From a virus (Duplodnaviria; Heunggongvirae; Uroviricota; Caudoviricetes), in IMG/VR virus record IMGVR_UViG_2534681626_000018: 30,320 nt of DNA; one strand, 5' to 3'. The position numbers and the translations under genes were made by a program. How positions within the stretch are numbered: the first letter of the stretch is position 1; every line of letters starts with the position of its first letter. This document shows positions 3,619 to 24,909 of this stretch, piece by piece. Under the pieces are notes generated by a model that was given only the letters and a program-made list of their open reading frames with translations, was not told the origin of the DNA and ran no database searches.

Positions 3619-5893
3619 AGCCTCCGGGCGTTTTGTCCCTCCGTCAGCATTTGCTGCAGGCACCGGTAAGGCGTTTACCGGTGCTTATGCATGGAACGCG
3701 CCACGCGAGGCCGTCGGGCGCGAAAGACTCCTTACACGTGACGAGATGCGTCAGGTGCAAGGTGTTTTATCCACGATTAACCGCCTGCCTTACTTTTTGC
3801 GCTCGCTGTTTACTTCACGCTATGACTACATCCGGCGCAATAAAAGCCCGGTGCACGGGTTTTATTTCCTCACATCCACTTTTCAGCGTCGTTTATGGCC
3901 GCGCATTGAGCGTGTGAATCAGCGCCATGAAATGAACACCGACGCGTCGTTACTGTTTCTGGCAGAGCGTGACCACTATGCGCGCCTGCCGGGAATGAAT
4001 GACAAGGAGCTGAAAAAGTTTGCCGCCCGTATCTCATCGCAGCTTTTCATGATGTATGAGGAACTCTGCGATGCCTGGGTGGATGCGCATGGCGAAAAAG
4101 AATCGCTGTTTACGGATGAGGCGCAGGCGCATCTGTATGGTCATGTTGCTGGCGCTGCACGTGCTTTCAATATTTCCCCTCTCTACTGGAAAAAATACCG
4201 TAAAGGACAGATGACCACGAGGCAGGCATATTCTGCCATTGCCCGTCTGTTTAACGATGAGTGGTGGACTCATCAGCTTAAAGGCCAGCGTATGCGCTGG
4301 CATGAGGCGTTACTGATTGCTGTCGGGGAGGTGAATAAAGACCGTTCTCCTTATGCCAGTAAACATGCCATTCGTGATGTGCGTGCGCGCCGCCAGGCAA
4401 ATCTGGAATTTCTTAAATCGTGTGACCTTGAAAACAGGGAAACCGGCGAGCGCATCGACCTTATCAGTAAGGTGATGGGAAGTATTTCTAATCCTGAAAT
4501 TCGCCGGATGGAGCTGATGAACACCATTGCCGGTATTGAGCGTTACGCCGCCGCAGAGGGTGATGTGGGGATGTTTATCACGCTGACCGCGCCGTCAAAG
4601 TATCACCCGACACGTCAGGTCGGAAAAGGCGAAAGTAAAACCGTCCAGCTAAATCACGGCTGGAACGATGAGGCATTTAATCCAAAGGATGCGCAGCGTT
4701 ATCTCTGCCGCATCTGGAGCCTGATGCGCACGGCATTCAAGGATAATGATTTACAGGTCTACGGTTTGCGTGTCGTCGAGCCACACCACGACGGAACGCC
4801 GCACTGGCATATGATGCTTTTTTGTAATCCACGTCAGCGTAACCAGATTATCGAAACCATGCGTCGCTACGCGCTCAAAGAGGATGGCGACGAAAGAGGA
4901 GCCGAGCGAAACCGTTTTCAGGCGAAACACCTTAACCGGGGCGGTGCTGCGGGGTATATCGCGAAATACATTTCAAAAAATATCGACGGCTATGCACTGG
5001 ATGGTCAGCTCGATAACGATACCGGCAGACCTCTGAAAGATACTGCCGCGGCTGTTACTGCATGGGCGTCAACGTGGCGCATCCCGCAATTTAAAACGGT
5101 TGGTCTGCCGACAATGGGGGCTTACCGTGAACTACGCAAATTGCCTCGCGGCGTCAGCATTGCTGATGAGTTTGACGAACGCGTCGAGGCTGCACGCGCT
5201 GCCGCAGACAGTGGCGATTTTGCGTTGTATATCAGCGCGCAGGGTGGGGCAAATGTCCCGCGCGATTGTCAGACTGTCAGGGTTGCCCGTAGCCCGTCGG
5301 ATGACGTTAACGAGTACGAGGAAGAAGTCGAGAGAGTGGTCGGCATTTACGCGCCGCATCTCGGCGCGCGTCATATTCATATCACCAGAACGACGGACTG
5401 GCGCATTGTGCCGAAAGTTCCGGTCGTTGAGCCTTTGACTTTAAAAAGCGGCATCGCCGCGCCTCGGAGTCCTGTCAATAACTGTGGAAAGCTCACCGGT
5501 GGTGATGCTTCGTTACCGGCTCCCACACCTTCTGAGCACGCCGCAGCAGTGCTTAATCTGGTTGATGACGGTGTTATCGAATGGAATGACCCGGAGGTCG
5601 TGAGGGCGCTCAGAAGCGCATTAAAACACGGTCTGAGAAGACCAAACCGTCAGCAAAGAAACGGAAACCCGTTAAAACCGCATGAAATAGCGCCATCGGC
5701 CAGACTGACCCGGTCAGAACGATTGCAAATTACCCGTATCCGCGTTGACCTCGCTCAGAACGGTATCAGGCCGCAACGATGGGAGCTTGAGGCGCTGGTG
5801 CGTGGCGCGACCGTAAATTATGACGGGAAAAAATTCACGTATCCGGTCGCTGATGAGTGGCCGGGATTCTCAACAGTAATGGAGTGGACATGA
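3608..5893 (+). CDS. A: Rolling-circle replication initiation endonuclease, P2 A-like
   Basis: 761 aa from ATG 3608 (the ORF track's 3566 start is probably too far upstream); contains an HUH-type motif (GTPHWHMMLF) and the AGYIAKYISK region; length matches P2 A. Confidence 0.85.
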   Translation: MAVKASGRFVPPSAFAAGTGKAFTGAYAWNAPREAVGRERLLTRDEMRQVQGVLSTINRLPYFLRSLFTSRYDYIRRNKSPVHGFYFLTSTFQRRLWPRIERVNQRHEMNTDASLLFLAERDHYARLPGMNDKELKKFAARISSQLFMMYEELCDAWVDAHGEKESLFTDEAQAHLYGHVAGAARAFNISPLYWKKYRKGQMTTRQAYSAIARLFNDEWWTHQLKGQRMRWHEALLIAVGEVNKDRSPYASKHAIRDVRARRQANLEFLKSCDLENRETGERIDLISKVMGSISNPEIRRMELMNTIAGIERYAAAEGDVGMFITLTAPSKYHPTRQVGKGESKTVQLNHGWNDEAFNPKDAQRYLCRIWSLMRTAFKDNDLQVYGLRVVEPHHDGTPHWHMMLFCNPRQRNQIIETMRRYALKEDGDERGAERNRFQAKHLNRGGAAGYIAKYISKNIDGYALDGQLDNDTGRPLKDTAAAVTAWASTWRIPQFKTVGLPTMGAYRELRKLPRGVSIADEFDERVEAARAAADSGDFALYISAQGGANVPRDCQTVRVARSPSDDVNEYEEEVERVVGIYAPHLGARHIHITRTTDWRIVPKVPVVEPLTLKSGIAAPRSPVNNCGKLTGGDASLPAPTPSEHAAAVLNLVDDGVIEWNDPEVVRALRSALKHGLRRPNRQQRNGNPLKPHEIAPSARLTRSERLQITRIRVDLAQNGIRPQRWELEALVRGATVNYDGKKFTYPVADEWPGFSTVMEWT

Positions 5894-6378
5894 TGGCAAA
5901 AATTCACGAGGTAAAGCTGCACGCAAAATATTTCGACCTTGTACTGGAAGGAAAAAAACGCGCAGAGTTTCGGAAAAATGACCGTAATTATGAGCGCGGG
6001 GACACGTTGATTTTGCATGAATGGGTGCAGGGTGTGTTTACGGGGCGAAAGGTTGAAGCCCGGATAACAGATGTTACTGACCTGTCAGACTGGCTGGAAG
6101 ATTATGTCTTGCTAAGTATTGAGCTGCTTAATACGGGCGCATATAAGATTGTGAACTGGAAAGAACTTAGTGAACGTGGTCTGGTATTCAGAATTAATCA
6201 TGAAATTATGCATCAGCTCGGCCTTGCTGTTATGTATGAACCAGAGACGGGCTGTCTGGCGGGGCAGTGGTTGCTGCGGATGGGATATGGAACTATTCAG
6301 ATGAACAGGTGGAGCGTGCAAAGCAAAACGGGTGGCTTGGATAATGCACAGAATACCAGGCGAGATACCGCACCATAA
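5890..6378 (+). CDS. ASCH/PUA-like (DUF3850-type) domain protein
   Basis: N-terminal about 80 aa (KIHEVKLHAKYFDLVLEGKKRAEFRKNDRNYERGDTLILHEW) fits the DUF3850/ASCH motif as I recall it; about 80 aa C-terminal extension of unknown nature; start overlaps the A stop (ATGATGG). Confidence 0.6.
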   Translation: MMAKIHEVKLHAKYFDLVLEGKKRAEFRKNDRNYERGDTLILHEWVQGVFTGRKVEARITDVTDLSDWLEDYVLLSIELLNTGAYKIVNWKELSERGLVFRINHEIMHQLGLAVMYEPETGCLAGQWLLRMGYGTIQMNRWSVQSKTGGLDNAQNTRRDTAP

Positions 6379-6397: not shown

Positions 6398-6550
6398 ATG
6401 GCTATTGTTCAGCGTTTACAGCGGATTATGGTCAACGAAAATCTGACGCCCGATGAGCTGGTCGGGTGTGCCGAAATAGTTCGGGATAATTACGGGCGGC
6501 TTAACTATATCGGTCAGTCCAGAGTTGCGCCACCACCACGAAGACGATAG
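6398..6550 (+). CDS. Possible small ORF (50 aa), doubtful
   Basis: In-frame ATG within ORF 6332..6550; no convincing Shine-Dalgarno; proline/arginine-rich tail. Confidence 0.2.
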   Translation: MAIVQRLQRIMVNENLTPDELVGCAEIVRDNYGRLNYIGQSRVAPPPRRR

Positions 6551-6773
6551 AGAACGCCGCCAGTCGTGAAACTTGTTTTCAGGGCTGGCGGGGTTGAACA
6601 ACGAGCGTAGCGAGGCGTTAGTTGACAGACATATTTTTACTGCGTTGGTGCCGGTTTTTGACGGTTGAAAGGAGTTAGGTTGGAGAGCTAACAACTTACA
6701 AATATTCAAAAGTAAGCATCCTGTTGCTAACATGAGGTCGATTTTTTATGTGGATGATGCAAAAAGGATAGCT

Positions 6774-7505
6774 ATGGATACTATAATCGCTTTTCTATCA
6801 CTCGCTTTTTTCGTTGCTTTCTTCATCGGGTTAATCAAGCCATCACTGGTGCGAATGCCAAACCGCAAACGTGCAAGTGCGGTTTATCTCGGAGGAGGTT
6901 TTGTATTGAGCATAATTGGTTCAATACTCTATCCAACAGAAAAAAGCCAGCCAGTTGATAAAACTGAAACATCAACCGTTGCAGAACATAAAGTCCAAAA
7001 AACATTCGAATATGGTGAAAAAACACTCAAGGAATATCGGAACGAGTCAAAGAAAACACGACACGATATTGTGAATAGTTACATTGATTTTAAGGAAGTT
7101 CCAGCCACCGCGTCAGATGCGTTTTATGCCTGCATGAGTGAATATACATTTACCAAAGATGATGAGTTGAAACTCGGTGATGTTCTTGGGTGGTGCTTTA
7201 ATGATTATGAAAATGACCCGAATTCACTAAACAATAAAATCAATCTTGATACATTTCAGAGTAATTTTAGTGGTTGGGATGGTTCTTATCGTCCATTGGA
7301 AAAACTAATTAAAGATAATATGAACGATGATTCATCTTATAAACATGTATCAACGGTATATCATCTGGTTTTGAATAAAGACCCGCATGCCATTGTGAAA
7401 ACCACGTTTCGCGGAACTAATGCTTATGGCGGAGTGGTGAAACAGACGATTGCTGCGCGTGTTGATATAAAAACTGGTAAGGTGATATCAATCATAGATA
7501 ATTGA
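6774..7505 (+). CDS. Membrane-anchored protein of unknown function (two N-terminal TM helices + about 180-aa soluble domain)
   Basis: ATG 6774 preceded by AAAGGA; hydrophobic stretches IIAFLSLAFFVAFFIGLI and VYLGGGFVLSIIGSIL; about 38% GC against about 53% for the phage backbone; followed by an intrinsic terminator. Confidence 0.6.
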   Translation: MDTIIAFLSLAFFVAFFIGLIKPSLVRMPNRKRASAVYLGGGFVLSIIGSILYPTEKSQPVDKTETSTVAEHKVQKTFEYGEKTLKEYRNESKKTRHDIVNSYIDFKEVPATASDAFYACMSEYTFTKDDELKLGDVLGWCFNDYENDPNSLNNKINLDTFQSNFSGWDGSYRPLEKLIKDNMNDDSSYKHVSTVYHLVLNKDPHAIVKTTFRGTNAYGGVVKQTIAARVDIKTGKVISIIDN

Positions 7506-7513
7506 TATCTTAC

Positions 7514-7555
7514 AATGCCGACGCTGAATATTTAATTGGGTGTCGGCATTTTTTG
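7514..7555 (+). terminator. Rho-independent terminator
   Basis: Stem AATGCCGAC / GTCGGCATT with 19-nt loop followed by TTTTTT, immediately after the 6774..7505 stop. Confidence 0.5.
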
Positions 7556-7614
7556 ACTATTAGAGCGGCAGAACCGAGATTTGTTGCGTATGAGATTAGC
7601 ACTGCGAGAATGTT

Positions 7615-8397
7615 ATGAAAATTATAAACCAACTTAAGAAGTTTGATAAGAAAAGAACGCCAGATGATGGCCGTATTAGTTTGTTATATGAAAACGCGAT
7701 TAAGTATGATATGTACTCTGTATATATTAAAGATAAAAATGATACAGAATACCTCTTTGACTGTTTGGTTGATGGGAAGATAAAGGCTTTTAAATGGGAT
7801 GATGAGGAGCGTAGATTTCATATAAGTTCATGCTTGGATATTTCTGAGGTTACGCCTGATTCTTTTTTTGGTGTTTACTACTACCGTGCGCATGAGTTGC
7901 GATTTAACTCTTTAAATGATTTAACATTTTTAAGGGAGTTGTTCTTTAGAGTAAAGTCTAATTATGAAAATATAAAGTTTAGTCGTGAAAAATATATTTA
8001 TCGACAGCAAAAAAAAGAAATAACTGATGTGATGTTTGTTCTCTCAACGATTATAAGAATGTATCGTGAATGGGATGCTCAAACTGTGTTTAGTGAGTTT
8101 TCAATAATGACCGAAGTCGCTGGTAGTTTATGGGTATACCATGACGATAAAAACAGGATGCGTAAAGAGCTTCGTTTATGCCTGAATTCTCTTGTTCAGA
8201 ATGGAGATCTTGTTGAAACAAGTAGTGGATTTAGGCCAACAGGAAAGGCACTGAACACAATATCTACATTCAATAAAGATGAGGTGCGGTACAGAGAGAA
8301 TTTGAGTACTCAGAAGAAAATGTTTTGGGCTACTTTTTTCGCAGCAGTCGGCGGCGTAGGAAGTATGATTGCAGCTATAATAGGGCTTCTAAAATGA
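7615..8397 (+). CDS. Tail-anchored membrane protein of unknown function (soluble N-terminal domain + C-terminal TM helix)
   Basis: 260-aa ORF; C-terminal hydrophobic segment FWATFFAAVGGVGSMIAAIIGLL; about 33% GC, lysine/tyrosine-rich; no motif I can assign. Confidence 0.6.
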   Translation: MKIINQLKKFDKKRTPDDGRISLLYENAIKYDMYSVYIKDKNDTEYLFDCLVDGKIKAFKWDDEERRFHISSCLDISEVTPDSFFGVYYYRAHELRFNSLNDLTFLRELFFRVKSNYENIKFSREKYIYRQQKKEITDVMFVLSTIIRMYREWDAQTVFSEFSIMTEVAGSLWVYHDDKNRMRKELRLCLNSLVQNGDLVETSSGFRPTGKALNTISTFNKDEVRYRENLSTQKKMFWATFFAAVGGVGSMIAAIIGLLK

Positions 8398-8557
8398 GCC
8401 AACAAAATCGTATGATGAAGTATTGAGTGAAAAGCATTCTTTATATGCATTATTTTGCATGCAACATATGCTATACATTCTAGCTATGAATTGTCAGACG
8501 TGGCAGTACTTCTGTATGGTAATGCAACTGCATTAAAACCGCCCCATGAAGCGGGCG

Positions 8558-8576
8558 GGCGAGGCGGGGAAAGCAC
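8558..8576. other. cos: cos cohesive-end site (19-nt overhang sequence GGCGAGGCGGGGAAAGCAC)
   Basis: Sequence matches the P2 cohesive end as I recall it; located just upstream of the portal/terminase genes as in P2. Confidence 0.6.
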
Positions 8577-8718
8577 TGCGCGCTGGCGGTGGTGCTGATT
8601 TTATTTTTTCAGCGTCTGAGCGCGTCGTGAAGGCGCTTAGTCTGCCCGTTGAGGCGTTGGTGTGTCTGCGGGGTGTTTTGTGCGGTGGTGAGCGTGTGAG
8701 GGCGTGATGACGGGGTGT

Positions 8719-8745: not shown

Positions 8746-9780
8746 TCAGCCGTTGTCAGTGTCCAGTGAGTAGTTTTTAAAGCGGATGACCTCCTGACCG
8801 AGCCAGCCGTTTATCTCGCGGATCCTGTCCTGTAGCGGGATAAGCTCATTACGGACAAAGACCTTTGCCACTTTCTCAATATCACCCAGCGACCCGACGT
8901 TCTCCGGCTTGCCGCCCATCAACTGAAAGGGGATACGGTGCGCGTCCAGCAGGTCAGCGGCGCTGGCTTTTTTGATATTAAAAAAATCGTCCTTCGTTGC
9001 CACTTCACTGAGCGGGATAATTTTAATGCCGTCAGCTTTCCCCTGCGGGGCATAGAGAAACAGGTTTTTAAAGTTGTTGCGGCCTTTCGACTTAACCATG
9101 TTTTCGCGAAGCATTTCGATATCGTTGCGATCCTGCACGGCATCGGTGACGTACATGATGTATCCGGCATGAGCGCCATTTTCGTAATACTTTCGGCGGA
9201 ACAGCGTGGCCGACTCATTCAGCCAGGCAGAATTAAGGGCGCTGAGATATTCCGGCAGGCCGTACAACTCCTGATTAATATCCGGCTCCAGCAGGTGAAA
9301 CACGGAGCCGGGCGTGAAGGCTGTCGGCTCGTTGAAGGACGGCACCCACCAGTAAACATCCTCCTCCACGCCACGGCGGGGATATTTTGCCGGTGAGGTT
9401 TCCAGTCTGATGACCTTACCGGTGGTGCTGTAACGCTTTTCCAGAAACGCATTACCGAAAACCAGAAAATCCAGCACAAAGCGGCTGAAATCCTGCTGGG
9501 AAAGCCACGGATGCGGGATAAATGTCGAGGCCAGAATATTGCGTTTAACGTAAATCGGTGAGCTGTGATGCACGGCAGCACGCAGGCTTTTTGCCAGACC
9601 GGTAAAGCTGACCGGTGGCTCATACCATCTGCCGTTACTGATGCACTCGACGTAATCCAGAATGTCACGGCGGTCGAGTACCGGCACCGGCTCGCCAAAG
9701 GTGAATGCTTCCATTTTCGGGGCGCTGGCAGTCATTGTTTTCACCGCTGGCTGCGGTGTTTTCCCTTTTTTCTTACTCAT
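8746..9780 (-). CDS. Q: Portal (capsid vertex) protein, P2 Q-like
   Basis: 344 aa; position and length as P2 Q; Q stop overlaps the P start region. Confidence 0.9.
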   Translation of the reverse strand: MSKKKGKTPQPAVKTMTASAPKMEAFTFGEPVPVLDRRDILDYVECISNGRWYEPPVSFTGLAKSLRAAVHHSSPIYVKRNILASTFIPHPWLSQQDFSRFVLDFLVFGNAFLEKRYSTTGKVIRLETSPAKYPRRGVEEDVYWWVPSFNEPTAFTPGSVFHLLEPDINQELYGLPEYLSALNSAWLNESATLFRRKYYENGAHAGYIMYVTDAVQDRNDIEMLRENMVKSKGRNNFKNLFLYAPQGKADGIKIIPLSEVATKDDFFNIKKASAADLLDAHRIPFQLMGGKPENVGSLGDIEKVAKVFVRNELIPLQDRIREINGWLGQEVIRFKNYSLDTDNG

Positions 9781-19885: not shown

Positions 19886-20489
19886 TTCGCGACTGCTGCC
19901 GACCGGCTCATCACTGCTTGAAGTTGCCGCCGCAAAAGCCTGTGCGGAAATTGAAAAAACGCCGGTCAGTATTCGTGAGCTGTGGAACCCGGATACCTGT
20001 CCGGCAAATCTGCTGCCGTGGCTGGCGTGGTCATTTTCGGTTGACCGCTGGGATGATAAGTGGCCGGAAGCGACAAAACGCGCTGTTATCCGCGATGCGT
20101 ATTTCATTCACTGCCATAAGGGCACTATTGGTGCGATTCGCCGTGTGGTGGAGCCACTCGGCTATCTGATTGAGGTGAGGGAGTGGTGGCAGCTCAACGA
20201 GGAGCCGGGGACGTTCCGTATCGTTGTCGGCGTGCTTGAGCAGGGTATTACCGAGGAAATGTATCAGGAGCTGGAGCGCCTCGTTGCTGATGCAAAACCG
20301 GCAAGCCGCCATCTGACGGGACTGGCTATCAGTTTAAGTACAACCGGCAACATTTTTGCCGGTGCGGGATGCTATCACGGCGACGCCCTGACGGTTTATC
20401 CCTACACCCCGGAGGCCATTATTGTCGGAGGGGATTATTTCCCGGCCTCGGCCATTCATTTAATTGATAACCTGAGAGTAAACGCATGA
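19878..20489 (+). CDS. I: Baseplate/tail-fibre attachment protein I
   Basis: 203-aa ORF overlapping the J stop (ATGAGTGA); true start may be downstream. Confidence 0.8.
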   Translation: MSDSRLLPTGSSLLEVAAAKACAEIEKTPVSIRELWNPDTCPANLLPWLAWSFSVDRWDDKWPEATKRAVIRDAYFIHCHKGTIGAIRRVVEPLGYLIEVREWWQLNEEPGTFRIVVGVLEQGITEEMYQELERLVADAKPASRHLTGLAISLSTTGNIFAGAGCYHGDALTVYPYTPEAIIVGGDYFPASAIHLIDNLRVNA

Positions 20490-21655
20490 CAGTGAAATAC
20501 TACGCCATTCTGACTAATCAGGGCGCAGCACGGCTGGCTAACGCGACGATGCTCGGCAGTAAGCTGAATCTGACGCAAATGGCCGTTGGTGATGCGAATG
20601 GTGTCTTGCCGACACCAGACCCGGCACAGACAAAACTGATTAACCAGAAACGCATCGCGCCGCTGAATCTTCTGAGTGTTGACCCGAACAACCAGAGCCA
20701 GATTATTGCGGAGCAAATCATCCCTGAGAACGAGGGCGGATTCTGGATCCGTGAGATTGGGCTTTATGATGATGAAGGCGTACTCATTGCGGTGGCGAAC
20801 TGCCCGGAAACGTACAAACCGCAGTTGCAGGAAGGCAGCGGTCGTACCCAGACTATCCGCATGATTCTGGTTGTCACGAATACCGAAGCCATCACGCTGA
20901 AAATCGACCCGTCGGGGGTACTGGCGACCCGTAAATACGTGGATGATGAAGTCCTGGAATTAAAGCTGTATGTGGATGACCAGATGAGAAACCACATTGC
21001 CGCACAGGATCCTCATACCCAGTATGCACAGAAACATAATCCGACATTTACCGGAGAACCAAAAGCGCCGACGCCTGCCGCAGGAAATAACACCACGCGG
21101 ATTGCGACCACTGCGTTTGTACAGGCCGCTATTACCGCTCTGATTAACGGTGCGCCTGCCACGCTGGATACACTGAAAGAAATTGCCGCAGCCATTAACA
21201 ATGACCCGAAATTCAGCACCACCATTAACAATGCGCTGTCAGGTAAGCAGCCACTGGATGAGACGCTGACTCATTTGAGTGGGAAGGATGTTGCCGGTCT
21301 TCTCGCATACCTTGGTTTGGGAGAAGCCAGATATGTCATTCAGCGAGGAGCTAATGCCAATGGTGCATGGGTACGCTGGTCAGATGGTGCAATAGAAGTA
21401 TTTGGAACCGGTGGATCTAATGATAATGGACTGGCTAAAGTCGTTTACCCAATTGCACTGCCTAAACTTTCACGTTTTATCAGTATCGCAGAAAGAATAA
21501 GAACGGATTACGAGAGCACACCTAATAATGTTCACGTTTCAATGATCGTGGATGATCAGGTAACAAATACCGGCTTTTATGCCCGCTGCCAGATGTACGA
21601 CGGCAGACCATCATCAAATGCTTTTTCATGGAGGGTTTATTGTGCGCCTGTTTAA
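20486..21655 (+). CDS. H: Tail fibre protein H (constant N-terminal part + currently expressed variable C-terminal tip)
   Basis: 389 aa; N-terminus resembles P2 H; the last about 114 codons (from 21314) lie inside the invertible segment. Confidence 0.85.
   Translation: MTVKYYAILTNQGAARLANATMLGSKLNLTQMAVGDANGVLPTPDPAQTKLINQKRIAPLNLLSVDPNNQSQIIAEQIIPENEGGFWIREIGLYDDEGVLIAVANCPETYKPQLQEGSGRTQTIRMILVVTNTEAITLKIDPSGVLATRKYVDDEVLELKLYVDDQMRNHIAAQDPHTQYAQKHNPTFTGEPKAPTPAAGNNTTRIATTAFVQAAITALINGAPATLDTLKEIAAAINNDPKFSTTINNALSGKQPLDETLTHLSGKDVAGLLAYLGLGEARYVIQRGANANGAWVRWSDGAIEVFGTGGSNDNGLAKVVYPIALPKLSRFISIAERIRTDYESTPNNVHVSMIVDDQVTNTGFYARCQMYDGRPSSNAFSWRVYCAPV
21300..21325. repeat. Left crossover site of invertible segment (hix/gix-like, 26 bp)
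   Basis: TTCTCGCATACC-TT-GGTTTGGGAGAA: two imperfect 12-bp half-sites around a 2-bp core; lies inside H at codons AYLGLGEA. Confidence 0.6.
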
Positions 21656-21839
21656 TCCAGTTACTTTGACTGAAGTAATCCCCGGTCTTCATGACGTGAC
21701 CGGGGCTATTGAATTACCGGAGGACAACTGGTTTTTTACTATGACAGAAATTCCTCAGGGCATGGAGCTAACAATTAATGAGAAAGGCGAACCAATACTG
21801 ATTGAGGTTAATCAGTCTCAGGGAATACAGGCCAAATAA
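21642..21839 (+). CDS. Small ORF downstream of H (possible short or truncated tail-fibre assembly protein)
   Basis: 65 aa from GTG 21642 with GGAGGG 6 nt upstream; no recognisable Tfa C-terminal motif; overlaps the convergent Tfa' 3' end. Confidence 0.3.
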   Translation: MRLFNPVTLTEVIPGLHDVTGAIELPEDNWFFTMTEIPQGMELTINEKGEPILIEVNQSQGIQAK

Positions 21840-22413
21840 TATCAGGCGCGGTGCTGGTATCTATTGCCGTCACCGCGTCAATGTAATCCAGCACAGCGTT
21901 AAGGCGGGTTGTTTCTGCCTGCGTCAGTTTACGTCCGGCCTGCAATTTCAGCTGAATCAGACTGATGGAAGCCATAGCAGCATCAATCAGAGACTGGCGC
22001 TGTACTTCTGCTGCATCTACTGCGGCGCTATGCTGTGCCTCGGTATCTGTTACCCATTTCTCACCATCCCATTTATCGTATGGCGTTAATGGGGCAAAAG
22101 TGGTCGTATTTTCAGGGTAATCCCCCGGCACAGTAATTTCTTTTGATTCCCCCGTTTCGATGCCATAGACAATTTCACCGCGATGGTCTGGCACATATTC
22201 CCATGAGTTAAAATCTGCAGAACGGCAGATTGCATAACCAGCCTTATGTGTGCCGGGCGCATCGGTACAGGAATTGGCAGGAATACCCACCCCCACAGGC
22301 AGATACTCAACCGATGAGGATATGTATTCGCGGGTGTCGCCCCGGTAGTTGTACACAGTGATTTCTCCTGCCACGGTGGCAATAAACGCACTGTTTAATT
22401 TTGCTTTCGCCAT
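21808..22413 (-). CDS. Tail fibre assembly chaperone (Tfa family), alternative-orientation copy
   Basis: 201 aa; C-terminal motif ...AIDTSTAPDIIWPVFPE typical of lambda Tfa / Mu U-type chaperones. Confidence 0.8.
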   Translation of the reverse strand: MAKAKLNSAFIATVAGEITVYNYRGDTREYISSSVEYLPVGVGIPANSCTDAPGTHKAGYAICRSADFNSWEYVPDHRGEIVYGIETGESKEITVPGDYPENTTTFAPLTPYDKWDGEKWVTDTEAQHSAAVDAAEVQRQSLIDAAMASISLIQLKLQAGRKLTQAETTRLNAVLDYIDAVTAIDTSTAPDIIWPVFPETD

Positions 22414-22997
22414 TATGCAGCCCTCACGATGTAGTTAAATGCAATGTTGCGCGGACGGGTTTCAGATGCGTACACGGACGGATGAGTAACACCGTCTGAG
22501 GTCGATGCCCTGTAAGTCCTGAATGGTGGTAATCCGGTCGCTATTGCGTTGTTATTACCTGTTGGTGAAAGGTCCTTGCGATAAAGGATTACCTTGTCTG
22601 CCCTACTGGTTGCGTCCCATGATGTTCCTGACGACGATGGACTCAGGGCCGCACTGGGTATTTCTGGTACATCGTTGAAAACCGCATAGATATCGCTTTC
22701 CATCTGGTCTGACGGATTACCCACTCCGGTTGGCAGAGCGTGCGCATGGTCCTGGAAAGCAAAACTCTGACAACTGAGAAGTATGCGCCCCTCATCAATC
22801 CCTCGCCCGTCATCCCAGCCACGAATAAACTCACCACGTAAATCTGGCAATTTATTTGTCGGGTAAGCCTTTGCCAGTTCCGGGTATTCTTCAGCAGAAA
22901 AAGCCGCACCATTGCATTTCAGCCAGCCTGTTGGCGGAGTGGCTGAAGGCCACGGAACAGGGACACCAACAGGTAATGCAGAGCCTTCTCCCAAACC
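22413..22997 (-). CDS. Alternative tail-fibre C-terminal tip (Hv'), promoterless and startless; expressed only after inversion
   Basis: 195 codons in frame from the crossover core; the ORF's upstream part (MMPFARYFCIFINV) lies outside the segment; reading frame across the core matches H (see findings). Confidence 0.7.
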   Translation of the reverse strand, partial: GLGEGSALPVGVPVPWPSATPPTGWLKCNGAAFSAEEYPELAKAYPTNKLPDLRGEFIRGWDDGRGIDEGRILLSCQSFAFQDHAHALPTGVGNPSDQMESDIYAVFNDVPEIPSAALSPSSSGTSWDATSRADKVILYRKDLSPTGNNNAIATGLPPFRTYRASTSDGVTHPSVYASETRPRNIAFNYIVRAA

Positions 22998-23011
22998 AAC
23001 GTTTATGAAAA
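22986..23011. repeat. Right crossover site of invertible segment (hix/gix-like, 26 bp)
   Basis: TTCTCCCAAACC-AA-CGTTTATGAAAA; the half-site TTCTCCCAAACC is the exact reverse complement of the left site's inner half GGTTTGGGAGAA; core AA is complementary to the left core TT. Confidence 0.6.
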
Positions 23012-23065
23012 TGCAGAAATAACGAGCAAATGGCATCATTCCTGCTTTTGTCAGAGGGATCCACT

Positions 23066-23659
23066 ATGCTTATTGGCTATGTACGCGTGTCAACAAATGA
23101 CCAGAACACGGAATTGCAGCGTAACGCGCTGGAGTGTGCAGGATGTGAGCTGATTTTTGAGGACAAAATCAGCGGCACGAAGTCCGACAGGCCGGGACTG
23201 AAAAAACTGCTCAGGACATTATCGGAGGGGGATACACTGGTAGTCTGGAAGCTGGACCGGCTGGGGCGTAGTATGCGGCATCTGGTCATTCTGGTTGAGG
23301 AGCTGCGCGAACGCGGCATTAATTTTCGCAGCCTGACGGATGCCATTGATACCAGCACGCCGATGGGGCGTTTTTTCTTTCATGTGATGGGTGCCCTGGC
23401 TGAAATGGAGCGAGAACTCATTGTCGAGCGGACACGCGCAGGACTGGAAGCGGCCAGAGCCAAAGGTCGTATTGGTGGCAGACGACAGAAACTCACCGCG
23501 AGTGAGTGGGAGCAGGCCGGGCGTTTGCTGGCTGCAGGGGAGCCACGTCAACGCGTGGCACTGATTTTTGATATTGGTCTGTCCACGCTCTATAAAAAAT
23601 TTCCCGCCTCAGTGACAAAAAATAAATTGTGTCATCCCTTAGCCAACCGGGACAAATAG
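23066..23659 (+). CDS. Serine DNA invertase (Hin/Gin/Cin/Pin family)
   Basis: 197 aa from ATG 23066 (GAGGGA upstream); N-terminal MLIGYVRVSTNDQ with the catalytic serine context; C-terminal helix-turn-helix region. Confidence 0.85.
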   Translation: MLIGYVRVSTNDQNTELQRNALECAGCELIFEDKISGTKSDRPGLKKLLRTLSEGDTLVVWKLDRLGRSMRHLVILVEELRERGINFRSLTDAIDTSTPMGRFFFHVMGALAEMERELIVERTRAGLEAARAKGRIGGRRQKLTASEWEQAGRLLAAGEPRQRVALIFDIGLSTLYKKFPASVTKNKLCHPLANRDK

Positions 23660-23718
23660 CCTGACATCTCCGGCACAACTGAAAATACCACTCACCCATT
23701 AACCACGGAGTTAAACGG

Positions 23719-24909
23719 ATGAGTGACTATCATCACGGCGTGCAGGTGCTGGAGATTAACGACGGCACCCGCGTCATTTCCACCGTATCCACTGCCATTG
23801 TCGGCATGGTCTGCACGGCCAGCGATGCGGATGCGGAAACCTTCCCCCTCAATAAACCTGTGCTGATTACCAATGTGCAGAGCGCAATTGCAAAGGCCGG
23901 TAAAAAAGGCACGCTGGCGGCATCGTTGCAGGCCATCGCTGACCAGTCAAAACCGGTCACCGTTGTCGTGCGCGTGGAAGACGGCACCGGCGACGACGAA
24001 GAAACGAAACTCGCGCAGACCGTTTCCAATATCATCGGCACCACCGACGAAAACGGTCAGTACACCGGGCTAAAAGCCCTGCTGGCGGCGGAGTCGGTAA
24101 CCGGTGTTAAACCGCGTATTCTCGGTGTGCCGGGGCTGGATACCAAAGAGGTGGCTGTTGCACTGGCATCCGTCTGTCAGAAGCTGCGCGCTTTCGGGTA
24201 TATCAGCGCATGGGGCTGTAAAACCATTTCCGAGGTGAAAGCCTACCGCCAGAATTTCAGCCAGCGTGAGCTGATGGTCATCTGGCCGGATTTCCTCGCA
24301 TGGGATACGGTCACCAGTACCACCGCCACCGCGTATGCCACCGCCCGTGCGCTGGGTCTGCGTGCCAAAATCGACCAGGAGCAGGGCTGGCATAAAACGC
24401 TGTCCAACGTCGGGGTGAACGGTGTTACCGGCATCAGCGCCTCTGTATTCTGGGATTTGCAGGAGTCCGGCACCGATGCTGACCTGCTTAACGAGTCAGG
24501 CGTCACAACGCTGATTCGCCGTGACGGTTTCCGCTTCTGGGGTAACCGTACCTGCTCTGATGACCCGCTGTTCCTCTTTGAAAACTACACCCGCACCGCG
24601 CAGGTGCTGGCCGACACGATGGCTGAGGCGCATATGTGGGCGGTGGACAAGCCTGTCACCGCAACGCTGATTCGCGACATCGTTGACGGCATCAATGCCA
24701 AATTCCGTGAGCTGAAAACAAACGGCTATATCGTGGATGCGACCTGCTGGTTCAGCGAAGAATCCAACGATGCGGAAACCCTCAAGGCCGGAAAACTGTA
24801 TATCGACTACGACTATACACCGGTACCTCCTCTTGAAAACCTGACCCTGCGCCAGCGTATTACCGATAAATACCTGGCAAATCTGGTCACCTCGGTTAAC
24901 AGCAATTAA
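23719..24909 (+). CDS. FI: Tail sheath protein FI
   Basis: 396 aa; same length and position as P2 FI. Confidence 0.9.
   Translation: MSDYHHGVQVLEINDGTRVISTVSTAIVGMVCTASDADAETFPLNKPVLITNVQSAIAKAGKKGTLAASLQAIADQSKPVTVVVRVEDGTGDDEETKLAQTVSNIIGTTDENGQYTGLKALLAAESVTGVKPRILGVPGLDTKEVAVALASVCQKLRAFGYISAWGCKTISEVKAYRQNFSQRELMVIWPDFLAWDTVTSTTATAYATARALGLRAKIDQEQGWHKTLSNVGVNGVTGISASVFWDLQESGTDADLLNESGVTTLIRRDGFRFWGNRTCSDDPLFLFENYTRTAQVLADTMAEAHMWAVDKPVTATLIRDIVDGINAKFRELKTNGYIVDATCWFSEESNDAETLKAGKLYIDYDYTPVPPLENLTLRQRITDKYLANLVTSVNSN

What the first reader, a model, noticed from the sequence alone, without database searches (positions are those of the whole stretch)
21314..21839. Asymmetric arms of the invertible segment: currently expressed tip is short and AT-rich, with only a 65-aa downstream ORF in place of a full chaperone
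In the present orientation the H variable part is about 114 aa followed by a 65-aa ORF (GTG 21642, good Shine-Dalgarno). The silent arm encodes a 195-aa tip and a full-length 201-aa Tfa chaperone. The expressed arm is visibly more AT-rich, and the two chaperone genes overlap convergently by about 30 bp. The expressed arm may be a more recently acquired tip that folds without a canonical Tfa, or a decayed copy.
Basis: seen in the sequence. Interest (0 to 1): 0.4.

Follow-up and report, generated by a model that had tools for sequence, protein, structure and literature searches.

The report
Lectin fibre tip with half-size chaperone
The currently expressed arm of this P2-like prophage's invertible tail-fibre switch is an intact, widely conserved module, a small lectin-type fibre tip plus a 65-residue protein that is only the fibre-binding front half of a normal tail-fibre chaperone, and not a decayed copy.

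Summary
In detail: a 113-aa tip, a 65-aa ORF (GTG 21642, GGAGG upstream), a 32-nt convergent overlap with a 201-aa Tfa gene, and lower GC (0.44 against 0.51).

The arm is not decaying. The tip and the small ORF occur together in all 68 complete related loci. The ORF is always intact at 57-69 aa. It begins about 11-14 nt before the tip's stop codon. Its dN/dS is about 0.15. In at least 10 P2-like prophages with no invertase, the small ORF is the only gene between H and the sheath gene, in the P2 gene G position. No Caudo_TAP gene appears anywhere in their intact late regions.

The tip model matches the lectin "foot" of R-pyocin fibres and AP22 gp53. The 65-aa protein is predicted all-beta. It is homologous to the N-terminal module of small two-domain Tfa chaperones (Cronobacter phage JK004 gene_1, Pseudomonas phiCTX-type Tfa) but lacks their conserved helical C-terminal domain. 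That module is the fibre-binding one in TfaMu and Pam3 gp25.

My best reading is a tip-specific binding accessory for a lectin knob that trimerises on its own. Function is inferred, not shown. The family has no Pfam or NCBIfam model and PHROGs lists it as unknown. I rate it a new variant of a known kind, of moderate interest.

The parts
20486..21313 (+). Constant N-terminal part of tail-fibre gene H (Phage_tail_fib domain plus shaft), outside the invertible segment
   Evidence: Pfam PF12571 E 2.6e-61; ORF list
21300..21326 (.). Left crossover site of the invertible segment
   Evidence: 27-nt inverted repeat with 22985-23011, 81% complementary, inner 15 nt identical; no further copies in the window
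21314..21655 (+). Currently expressed variable tip of H: 113 aa, all-beta lectin-type 'foot' knob
   Evidence: AF2 pLDDT 82, pTM 0.72, 8 strands. Foldseek hits to R2/R1 pyocin fibre foot and AP22 gp53, E 1e-4 to 1e-3, TM 0.60-0.66. Weak Pfam Gp53-like_C hit, E 0.0023
21629..21633 (+). GGAGG Shine-Dalgarno-like motif, 7 nt before GTG 21642 and inside the last codons of H
   Evidence: Sequence; a GGAG-type motif is kept in nearly all related loci
21642..21839 (+). 65-aa ORF: stand-alone homologue of the N-terminal module of small Tfa chaperones. Conserved core is residues 1-56; the last 9 residues are read antisense to the other Tfa gene
   Evidence: phrog_5400 positions 1-66 of 145, E 1.4e-25. 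123 homologues of 46-91 aa. BLASTP 3e-13 to the N half of JK004 gene_1. hhalign to small Tfa proteins, E 2.4e-5. dN/dS 0.14-0.16. AF2 all-beta, pLDDT 78.5, tail residues 60-65 below 50
21808..21839 (.). 32-nt convergent overlap of the 3' ends of the small ORF and the silent Tfa gene
   Evidence: ORF coordinates. In related loci the same junction is an overlap of 14-32 nt or a gap of 26-87 nt, so the overlap itself is not conserved
21808..22413 (-). Silent-arm canonical tail-fibre assembly protein, 201 aa
   Evidence: Pfam Caudo_TAP E 2.1e-30; phrog_105
22413..22998 (-). Silent alternative tip of H (about 194 aa, Collar domain). It joins the constant part after inversion to give a 470-aa H'
   Evidence: Pfam PF07484 E 1.8e-15; in-silico inversion
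22985..23011 (.). Right crossover site
23057..23659 (+). Serine DNA invertase of the Gin/Cin/Pin/Hin type. The conserved start is MLIGYVRVS at 23057; the longest ORF starts at 23030
   Evidence: Pfam Resolvase E 3.9e-52 plus HTH_7; phrog_125 DNA invertase E 1.2e-100

Best explanation
The segment 21314-21839 is one complete, self-contained receptor-binding cassette of a Gin/Cin-type invertible tail-fibre switch in a P2-like prophage. It has two parts.

1. A 113-aa C-terminal knob for fibre protein H, with the discoidin-like lectin 'foot' fold of R-pyocin fibres and phage AP22 gp53. It presumably binds a surface sugar such as LPS.
2. A 65-aa protein whose start overlaps the end of H by 14 nt, an arrangement consistent with translational coupling. 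This protein is a stand-alone version of the N-terminal beta module of small two-domain tail-fibre assembly (Tfa) proteins. It lacks the conserved helical C-terminal domain that trimerises and nucleates fibre folding.

Proposed mechanism (inferred): as H is made, copies of the small protein bind the nascent lectin knob. They keep it soluble, shield it, or both. The jellyroll knob supplies its own trimerisation, so the Tfa C-terminal domain is dispensable. Inversion by the adjacent invertase replaces this cassette with the Collar-type tip and its full 201-aa Tfa.

Shown here: the anatomy, the homology, conservation under purifying selection, the strict tip and small-ORF pairing, and occurrence as the sole accessory gene in complete prophages. 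Inferred: binding of the small protein to the tip, its role, and the self-sufficiency of the knob.
For: - **Pairing.** The tip and the small ORF are adjacent in 68 of 68 complete related loci from viral and genome contigs. The ORF is 57-69 aa and starts about 11-14 nt before the tip's stop codon.
- **Selection.** NG86 dN/dS of the 55-codon core is 0.14 over all usable pairs and 0.16 for the 82 pairs with dS below 1. The set holds 45 unique sequences, 44 of them compared.
- **Co-divergence.** Tip and small-ORF distances correlate (Mantel r 0.63, p 0.0005).
- **Spread.** The family is found in Escherichia, Enterobacter, Salmonella, Citrobacter, Hafnia, Xenorhabdus, Erwinia and Pantoea.
- **Sole accessory gene.** At least 10 loci have no invertase and no Tfa, with the order H, small ORF, sheath. 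Three 20-kb loci have gene calls showing a complete P2 late region (capsid scaffold gene O through gene D and ogr). In these the 58-aa homologue sits in the gene G position and no Caudo_TAP gene is present.
- **Homology to chaperone N-modules.** JK004 gene_1 (128 aa) has the same N part plus the Caudo_TAP C part. A profile search of 1.8 billion representatives finds the same module alone. It also finds it fused to Caudo_TAP, Phage_tail_APC or DUF4376 C-terminal domains. The Phage_tail_APC-type relatives are annotated Tfa proteins of Pseudomonas phiCTX-like phages.
- **Role of the N-module.** In TfaMu and Pam3 gp25 the variable N-terminal beta domain binds the fibre and the conserved C-terminal helices trimerise (PMC9608196).
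- **Structure.** The small ORF is predicted all-beta. The tip model matches 6ct8, 6cl6, 6cxb and 4mtm.
- **Independent precedent.** Lytic Pantoea phage LIMEzero has a Gp53-like_C fibre (32.9 bits). It is followed by a 60-aa protein that aligns only to the N part of small Tfa proteins (hhalign 94.5%, E 8e-8).
- **Active switch.** Both orientations exist in E. coli genomes with identical arm sequence.
Against: - There is no direct evidence that the 65-aa protein is made, binds the tip, or is needed.
- No cultured phage in the phage collection carries this exact arm in the expressed orientation. Only S164 has it, and there it is silent.
- R-pyocin foot-type fibres needed co-expression of their full-length cognate chaperones for soluble yield (PMC6363177, PMC6116203). 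A foot fold therefore does not by itself imply chaperone independence.
- Fold searches with the small-ORF model found no significant match, including to the TfaMu N domain. The profile link to generic small Tfa N parts is only moderate (hhalign 76%).
- The Pfam Gp53-like_C score of the tip (18.8 bits) is below the gathering threshold of 24.9.
- The conserved GGAG motif also lies in conserved tip codons, so its conservation is not independent evidence of translation.
Confidence: 0.6

Rival explanations
1. Decayed arm: the 65-aa ORF is a functionless remnant of a full Tfa gene that lost its 3' half, and fibres made in this orientation are defective.
For: The ORF equals only the N-terminal half of two-domain relatives. 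It lacks the domain regarded as the conserved functional core of Tfa proteins (PMC9608196). Its last 9 codons are antisense read-through into the other Tfa gene and are predicted disordered. Truncation intermediates exist in the sister subfamily: P0162 retains the start of the C domain. IS3 has disrupted the ORF in E. coli W.
Against: The ORF is intact in 68 of 68 complete loci with the same end point. It has diverged to about 60% identity across genera with dN/dS of about 0.15. It is the only accessory gene in otherwise complete P2-like prophages. A second subfamily of N-only ORFs occupies the other arm in L044 and L045. An N-only homologue follows a Gp53-like_C fibre in the plaque-forming phage LIMEzero.
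Confidence: 0.05
2. Split chaperone: the 65-aa protein supplies tip specificity only. It needs the helical C-terminal domain of another Tfa in trans, either leaky expression of the silent 201-aa Tfa or the Tfa of a co-resident prophage, to assemble the fibre.
For: In most invertible loci a Tfa with the conserved C domain lies tail-to-tail with the small ORF. Enterobacterial genomes commonly carry several Tfa genes (my own knowledge). Chimeric pyocin fibres need two chaperones (PMC6116203).
Against: Class II prophages have no Tfa gene anywhere in their late region. L044 and L045 have N-only ORFs on both arms. No promoter-like site above chance drives the silent Tfa. The N and C modules would lack a covalent link, and nothing in the sequence suggests an interaction surface.
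Confidence: 0.12
3. Virion-bound cap or co-adhesin: the small protein is not mainly a folding helper. It stays on the mature knob, where it gates or contributes to receptor binding, as proposed for TfaMu and for the Alteromonas 'transient cap' chaperones.
For: TfaMu stays on virions and its N domain contacts the fibre tip (PMC9608196, PMC10579305). The Alteromonas A5 lectin-headed fibre folds without its chaperone, which was proposed to act as a cap (PMC10579305). The small ORF is more conserved (mean distance 0.32) than the tip (0.41), as expected if it binds a conserved face while the receptor loops vary.
Against: There are no virion proteomics. The protein is very small and has no recognisable sugar-binding features. 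This reading overlaps the best explanation rather than excluding it.
Confidence: 0.2

Closest known systems
Tail-fibre assembly proteins of the Caudo_TAP family (lambda Tfa, P2 gpG, Mu U/TfaMu; PF02413)
   Same: The gene lies directly after the fibre gene. The 65-aa ORF is homologous to the N-terminal part of small members (JK004 gene_1 BLASTP 3e-13; hhalign to small Tfa proteins E 2.4e-5). That part is the fibre-binding module in TfaMu and Pam3 gp25.
   Different: It lacks the whole conserved helical C-terminal domain that defines the family. It is about one third to one half the size and does not reach the Pfam threshold.
R-type pyocin and phiCTX fibre with cognate chaperone (PA0620/PA0621; PDB 6CL6, 6CT8, 6CXB)
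   Same: The tip model has the same lectin jellyroll 'foot' fold (TM 0.60-0.65). Long relatives of the small ORF carry Phage_tail_APC C domains. Their closest matches are annotated Tfa proteins of Pseudomonas phiCTX-like phages.
   Different: Pyocin chaperones are full two-domain proteins and were needed for soluble fibre. Here only the N module remains. The fibre is on a P2-like enterobacterial phage and its tip is switchable.
Invertible tail-fibre segments: Mu G (gin), P1 C (cin), e14 P (pin), and P2-like prophages of E. coli
   Same: It has a serine invertase next to the segment, two inverted crossover sites, a constant fibre N part outside, two alternative C parts each with a downstream accessory gene inside, and convergent arms. 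Both orientations are seen in nature.
   Different: The two arms are of unrelated types and unequal size. One accessory gene is a 65-aa N-module-only protein instead of a U/U'-type full Tfa.
Pantoea phage LIMEzero ORF46/ORF47 (NC_015585)
   Same: A fibre with a Gp53-like_C tip is followed by a 60-aa protein that aligns only to the N part of small Tfa proteins and ends where the linker to the C domain would begin. It is annotated 'tail fiber assembly protein'.
   Different: It is a different subfamily (hhalign to the 65-aa family only 11%). It is a podovirus with no invertible segment.
Alteromonas phage A5 gp8/gp9 (chaperone-independent lectin-headed fibre with a 'transient cap' chaperone)
   Same: It is a precedent for a lectin-tipped fibre that folds without its chaperone, with the accessory protein proposed to cap the tip.
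   Different: The A5 chaperone is a full-size protein resembling intramolecular chaperone domains. No sequence relationship was tested or claimed.

Membership tests
Caudo_TAP / Tfa tail-fibre assembly proteins (PF02413) | Encoded immediately downstream of the fibre gene whose tip it serves | tested here: met
   The ORF starts 14 nt before the H stop codon. The arrangement is the same in 68 of 68 complete loci.
Caudo_TAP / Tfa tail-fibre assembly proteins (PF02413) | N-terminal variable beta module that binds the fibre | tested here: met
   Met by sequence homology only: BLASTP 3e-13 over 56 aa to JK004 gene_1, hhalign E 2.4e-5 with prob 76% to small Tfa proteins, and an all-beta model. Binding itself was not tested.
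Caudo_TAP / Tfa tail-fibre assembly proteins (PF02413) | Conserved helical C-terminal domain (the linker PPPT motif, then the conserved W...Y...VD...WP motif) | tested here: not met
   The ORF ends 9 codons after the N module. A custom Tfa C-domain HMM finds the domain only on the opposite strand. There is no Pfam hit.
Caudo_TAP / Tfa tail-fibre assembly proteins (PF02413) | Score above the Pfam gathering threshold (22.1 bits) | tested here: not met
   Caudo_TAP is not reported for the 65-aa ORF even at E up to 1.
Gp53-like_C / R-pyocin foot lectin domain (PF21882) | Sequence score above the gathering threshold (24.9 bits) | tested here: not met
   18.8 bits, E 0.0023, for the 113-aa tip. Relatives score 20.9-23.4 bits.
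Gp53-like_C / R-pyocin foot lectin domain (PF21882) | Eight-stranded jellyroll beta-sandwich at the extreme C terminus of a fibre | tested here: met
   The AF2 model has 8 strands, pLDDT 82. Foldseek gives prob 1.0 and TM 0.60-0.66 to 6ct8, 6cl6, 6cxb, 6cl5 and 4mtm.
Gp53-like_C / R-pyocin foot lectin domain (PF21882) | Trimeric assembly with a sugar-binding distal loop network | not testable with these tools
   Only a monomer model could be made; no ligand or oligomer prediction is available.
Gin/Cin/Pin/Hin-type invertible tail-fibre segment | Adjacent small serine recombinase with a C-terminal HTH | tested here: met
   Resolvase E 3.9e-52 plus HTH_7 E 2.6e-12; phrog_125 DNA invertase.
Gin/Cin/Pin/Hin-type invertible tail-fibre segment | Two inverted crossover sites, one inside the fibre gene | tested here: met
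   21300-21326 and 22985-23011. Zero matches are expected by chance for the 26-mer.
Gin/Cin/Pin/Hin-type invertible tail-fibre segment | Inversion creates an alternative intact fibre ORF, and both states occur naturally | tested here: met
   In-silico inversion gives a 470-aa H' plus the Tfa. Strain Combat2C1 has the arm silent and NCTC9064 has it expressed, with 100% identical arm DNA.
Gin/Cin/Pin/Hin-type invertible tail-fibre segment | Fis-dependent recombinational enhancer in the 5' part of the invertase gene | not tested
   Not examined.
PHROG 5400 (unknown function) | Profile match | tested here: met
   E 1.4e-25, but the match covers only profile positions 1-66 of 145. The profile also includes two-domain members.

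The most novel reading that the evidence does not exclude
The 57-69-aa proteins are a distinct, unrecognised class of fibre accessory protein: a Tfa N-module that works without the supposedly essential conserved C-terminal domain. On this reading the protein remains on the virion as a stoichiometric cap or co-adhesin of lectin-type knobs. That would show that the fibre-binding and trimerisation functions of Tfa proteins are separable in nature, and that foot-type fibre tips need only the former.
Probability: 0.25. Interest if true: 0.6.

Novelty: new variant of a known kind. Interest (0 to 1): 0.42.

Why it matters
The current model of Tfa chaperones places the conserved function in the helical C-terminal domain and treats the N-terminal domain as a variable adaptor. 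This is my recollection of North et al. 2019, as summarised in PMC9608196.

This arm belongs to a widespread natural family that keeps only the adaptor. The family is under purifying selection, and in some complete P2-like prophages it is the sole accessory gene. That makes it a ready-made natural separation-of-function case for asking what the N module does alone, and whether lectin 'foot' tips can assemble without a trimerising chaperone.

There are also practical uses:
- These about 60-aa genes are annotated as hypothetical and could easily be dropped when fibre tips are transplanted into engineered phages or tailocins.
- The tip plus small ORF is a compact cassette of about 520 bp that could be tried for retargeting.

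For the invertible switch itself the result is ordinary. It is a standard Gin/Cin-type two-state switch whose arms are of different evolutionary origin.

Tried and rejected
- **Internal crossover sites.** I looked for a site that could fuse the small ORF to the neighbouring Tfa C domain, as in a shufflon or Min-type system. Only the two outer sites exist, so I rejected this.
- **Sequence and profile searches of PDB.** Neither the small ORF nor the tip gave a significant hit.
- **NCBIfam.** It has no model for the small ORF, H or the Tfa.
- **Promoter and terminator scan of 20300-23800.** Counts were at chance level and there was no convincing terminator between the convergent genes.
- **Xanthomonas phage DIBBI.** It has a 32%-identical tip but no adjacent small ORF. 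It is too distant to be informative.
- **tblastn with P0126.** It did not link the family to LIMEzero ORF47. That link holds only through the generic small-Tfa N profile.
- **Fused-chain AF2 model of tip plus small ORF.** I considered it but did not run it. The tool returns no inter-chain confidence and accepts only window or database sequences.
- **Literature.** My searches found no paper describing Tfa proteins that lack the C domain. The library excludes most subscription journals.
- **Scripting error.** The 'alttip' query was translated out of frame, so its hits reflect DNA similarity only. I did not use them.
Full report
**Context.** The window is the late region of a P2-like (Peduovirus-type) prophage. 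Gene H (20486-21655, 389 aa; Phage_tail_fib N domain E 2.6e-61) is followed by an invertible segment and a serine invertase (23057-23659; Resolvase plus HTH_7, phrog_125), and then by the sheath gene. The segment is bounded by the only two copies of a crossover-site motif in the window, at 21300-21326 and 22985-23011. They form a 27-nt inverted repeat whose inner 15 nt are identical.

**Check of the observation.**
- The variable part of H in the present orientation is 113 aa (21314-21655).
- A 65-aa ORF starts at GTG 21642, 7 nt after GGAGG, and overlaps the end of H by 14 nt. It ends at 21839.
- On the other strand lie a 201-aa Caudo_TAP protein (21808-22413) and a tip of about 194 aa with a Collar domain (22416-22998).
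- The 3' ends of the two accessory genes overlap by 32 nt.
- GC is 0.439 in the expressed arm, 0.508 in the silent arm and 0.529 overall. GC3 of the tip is 0.325 against 0.576 for the constant part of H.
- Inverting 21314-22997 in silico gives an intact 470-aa H' followed directly by the 201-aa Tfa.
- The arm occurs in 116 of 5426 complete E. coli genomes. Sequence-identical copies are found in both orientations: silent in strain Combat2C1 and expressed in NCTC9064. The switch is therefore active in nature.

**What the 65-aa ORF is.**
- *Family hits.* Pfam and NCBIfam have no family for it. It matches PHROG 5400 (unknown function) at E 1.4e-25, but only over profile positions 1-66 of 145.
- *Two-domain relative.* Cronobacter phage JK004 gene_1 (128 aa) has the same first 56 residues (34% identity, BLASTP 3e-13). 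These are followed by a canonical Tfa C-terminal domain (Caudo_TAP E 1.4e-20). It sits behind a fibre fragment with a Gp53-like_C tip.
- *Short homologues.* A search of 5.8 billion proteins returned 123 homologues, all 46-91 aa. They come from Escherichia, Enterobacter, Salmonella, Citrobacter, Hafnia, Xenorhabdus, Erwinia and others. All end within a few residues after a conserved GEPxLxDI motif.
- *Profile search.* A search of 1.8 billion cluster representatives found 47 families. Some are short stand-alone proteins (53-85 aa). Others are longer proteins (103-180 aa) in which the same N module is fused to three different C-terminal domains: the Caudo_TAP C part, Phage_tail_APC (PF16778) or DUF4376.
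- *Pseudomonas relatives.* The Phage_tail_APC-type relatives are most similar to annotated tail-fibre assembly proteins of Pseudomonas phiCTX-like and PB1-like phages.
- *Link to generic small Tfa proteins.* A profile-profile comparison aligns residues 21-57 of the family to the stretch of ordinary 126-154-aa Tfa proteins just before their PPPT linker (hhalign E 2.4e-5, probability 76%).
- *Structure.* The AF2 model (pLDDT 78.5) is all-beta with five strands and a disordered tail at residues 60-65.
- *Role of the module.* According to PMC9608196, in TfaMu and Pam3 gp25 the variable N-terminal beta domain binds the fibre, while the conserved C-terminal helices trimerise and nucleate assembly.

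The 65-aa ORF is therefore the N-terminal module on its own, the one that binds the fibre in those solved relatives.

**Is it a decaying remnant?** No.
- *Intact everywhere.* I collected 72 related loci. In all 68 with a complete copy the ORF is intact at 57-69 aa and starts about 11-14 nt before the stop codon of a homologous tip. ATG is the start in 36 of the 70 loci examined and GTG in 33.
- *Selection.* Pairwise Nei-Gojobori dN/dS on codons 2-56 of 44 of the 45 unique sequences is 0.14. It is 0.16 for the 82 pairs with dS below 1.
- *Co-divergence.* Tip and small-ORF distances co-vary (Mantel r 0.63, p 0.0005). The small ORF is the more conserved partner, with mean distance 0.32 against 0.41.
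- *The overlap is incidental.* Residues after about 56 differ with whatever lies antisense. The junction with the neighbouring gene ranges from a 32-nt overlap to an 87-nt gap.

**Contexts.**
- *Class I (most loci).* An invertible segment, with the small ORF tail-to-tail with a Tfa that carries the C domain. Both orientations are seen.
- *Class II (at least 10 loci: L007, L043, L049-L052, L054, L055, L066, L067).* No invertase and no second arm, with the order H, small ORF, sheath. I retrieved three 20-kb loci with gene calls and Pfam annotation. They show a complete P2 late region (O, N, M, L, X, holin, lysozyme, R, S, V, W, J, I, H, the 58-aa ORF, FI, FII, E, T, U, D, ogr) and no Caudo_TAP gene anywhere. 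There the small ORF sits exactly in the P2 gene G position.
- *Class III (L044, L045).* Both arms end in N-module-only ORFs. The second is a truncated JK004-gene_1-type protein.

These contexts argue that the tip plus small ORF is a self-sufficient cassette.

**The tip.** Pfam gives only a sub-threshold Gp53-like_C hit (18.8 bits, E 0.0023). The AF2 model has pLDDT 82, pTM 0.72 and eight strands. It matches the C-terminal 'foot' of the R2 and R1 pyocin fibres (6ct8, 6cl6, 6cxb, 6cl5) and AP22 gp53 (4mtm), with Foldseek probability 1.0, E 1e-4 to 1e-3 and TM 0.60-0.66. [quoted passage not shown] The same papers report that pyocin fibre fragments needed co-expression of their full-length cognate chaperones, which co-purified. 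A foot fold therefore does not by itself imply chaperone independence. PMC10579305 describes the converse case: a lectin-headed Alteromonas fibre folds without its chaperone, and the chaperone was proposed to act as a transient cap.

**Independent precedent.** The best, though non-significant, BFVD hit of the small-ORF model was a 60-aa 'tail fiber assembly protein' of the lytic Pantoea phage LIMEzero. That gene (ORF47) follows a fibre whose tip passes the Gp53-like_C threshold (32.9 bits). ORF47 aligns only to the N part of small Tfa proteins (hhalign 94.5%, E 8e-8) and stops where the linker would begin. The architecture 'lectin tip plus N-only Tfa' thus also exists in a plaque-forming phage, in a different subfamily (hhalign to the 65-aa family only 11%).

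**Composition.** The module is AT-rich wherever it occurs, with mean GC 0.46 against 0.51 for the 700 nt upstream. It is lower than the flank in 31 of 36 unique loci. Low GC therefore marks the cassette's foreign ancestry, not a recent acquisition by this prophage.

**Mechanism proposed.**
- *Shown.* The anatomy of a two-state Gin/Cin-type switch. One arm is a Collar-type tip with a full Tfa. The other is a lectin-foot tip with a conserved N-module-only protein.
- *Inferred.* The 65-aa protein is translated with H and binds the nascent knob as the homologous N modules do. It acts as a minimal holdase or shield, while the jellyroll knob trimerises without a helical nucleator.

**Rivals.**
- A functionless remnant. 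Selection and context data disfavour it (confidence about 0.05).
- A split chaperone that needs a Tfa C domain in trans. Classes II and III disfavour it, but co-resident prophages are not excluded (about 0.12).
- A virion-bound cap or co-adhesin rather than a folding helper. This is compatible with all the data and overlaps the best explanation (about 0.2).

**Origin.** Two-domain and N-only forms coexist in both subfamilies. One intermediate, P0162, retains the first residues of the C domain. The N-only form most likely arose by loss of the C domain, possibly more than once, and was then maintained.

**Verdict.** The arm does lack a canonical chaperone, but it is a normal, conserved cassette and not a decayed or newly acquired one. 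The switch is ordinary. The unannotated family of Tfa N-module-only proteins paired with lectin-foot tips is a new variant of a known kind. I found it undescribed in the literature I could search. It is of moderate interest because it naturally separates the two proposed Tfa functions.

Noticed in passing
L003 3362-4539 (E. coli W, NC_017635.1 985479-986656): An IS3-family element is inserted at the 5' end of the small ORF in E. coli W, leaving residues 8-65. The same disrupted arrangement is in viral contig L028 and in records labelled DH5alpha and hubt-sl.
   Followed up: partly
L044 481-895 and L045 4001-4382: These invertible segments have N-module-only small ORFs on both arms: a 61-aa ORF of the window's family, tail-to-tail with a 71-82-aa truncated JK004-gene_1-type ORF. 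Each sits behind its own Gp53-like tip, and no Tfa C domain is present in the segment.
   Followed up: partly
L032 4167-5167 (also L033, L035-L038, L040, L042): A different partner arm pairs a 244-aa glycine-rich tip with an 88-aa ORF. That ORF retains only the last 20 or so residues of the Tfa C domain (…DTSTAPGVIWPVPPE). It looks like another minimal accessory protein.
   Followed up: no
L077 6836-8459 (Pantoea phage LIMEzero NC_015585 34835-36458): ORF46 is a fibre with a Gp53-like_C tip (32.9 bits). It is followed by ORF47, a 60-aa protein annotated 'tail fiber assembly protein'. ORF47 aligns only to the N part of small Tfa proteins (hhalign 94.5%).
   Followed up: yes
window 6541-8580: A strongly AT-rich two-gene insert (GC down to 0.31): ORFs 6732-7505 (257 aa, hydrophobic N terminus) and 7615-8397 (260 aa, hydrophobic C terminus). 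It lies just before the large minus-strand ORF 8746-9780 (possibly the portal gene; not checked). Neither ORF has a Pfam or PADLOC hit. It may be unknown cargo at a P2 variable hotspot.
   Followed up: partly
window 5857-6378: A 173-aa ORF with DUF3850/ASCH and DUF7415 domains lies next to the AT-rich insert.
   Followed up: no
window 20486-21313 compared with L002 1951-3342 and L004 4102-5517: The constant part of H varies in length between otherwise close prophages. H is 389 aa here, 463 aa in NCTC9064 and 471 aa in S164. S164 carries a second copy of the unit of about 80 aa TTAFV…LDTL…NDP.F.TT..NAL..K.
   Followed up: no
window 23030-23059: The longest invertase ORF starts at ATG 23030 and would overlap the start of the silent-arm ORF (22413-23039, minus strand). 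Homologues are annotated from the conserved MLIGYVRVS, which is 23057 here, 46 nt from the right crossover site.
   Followed up: no
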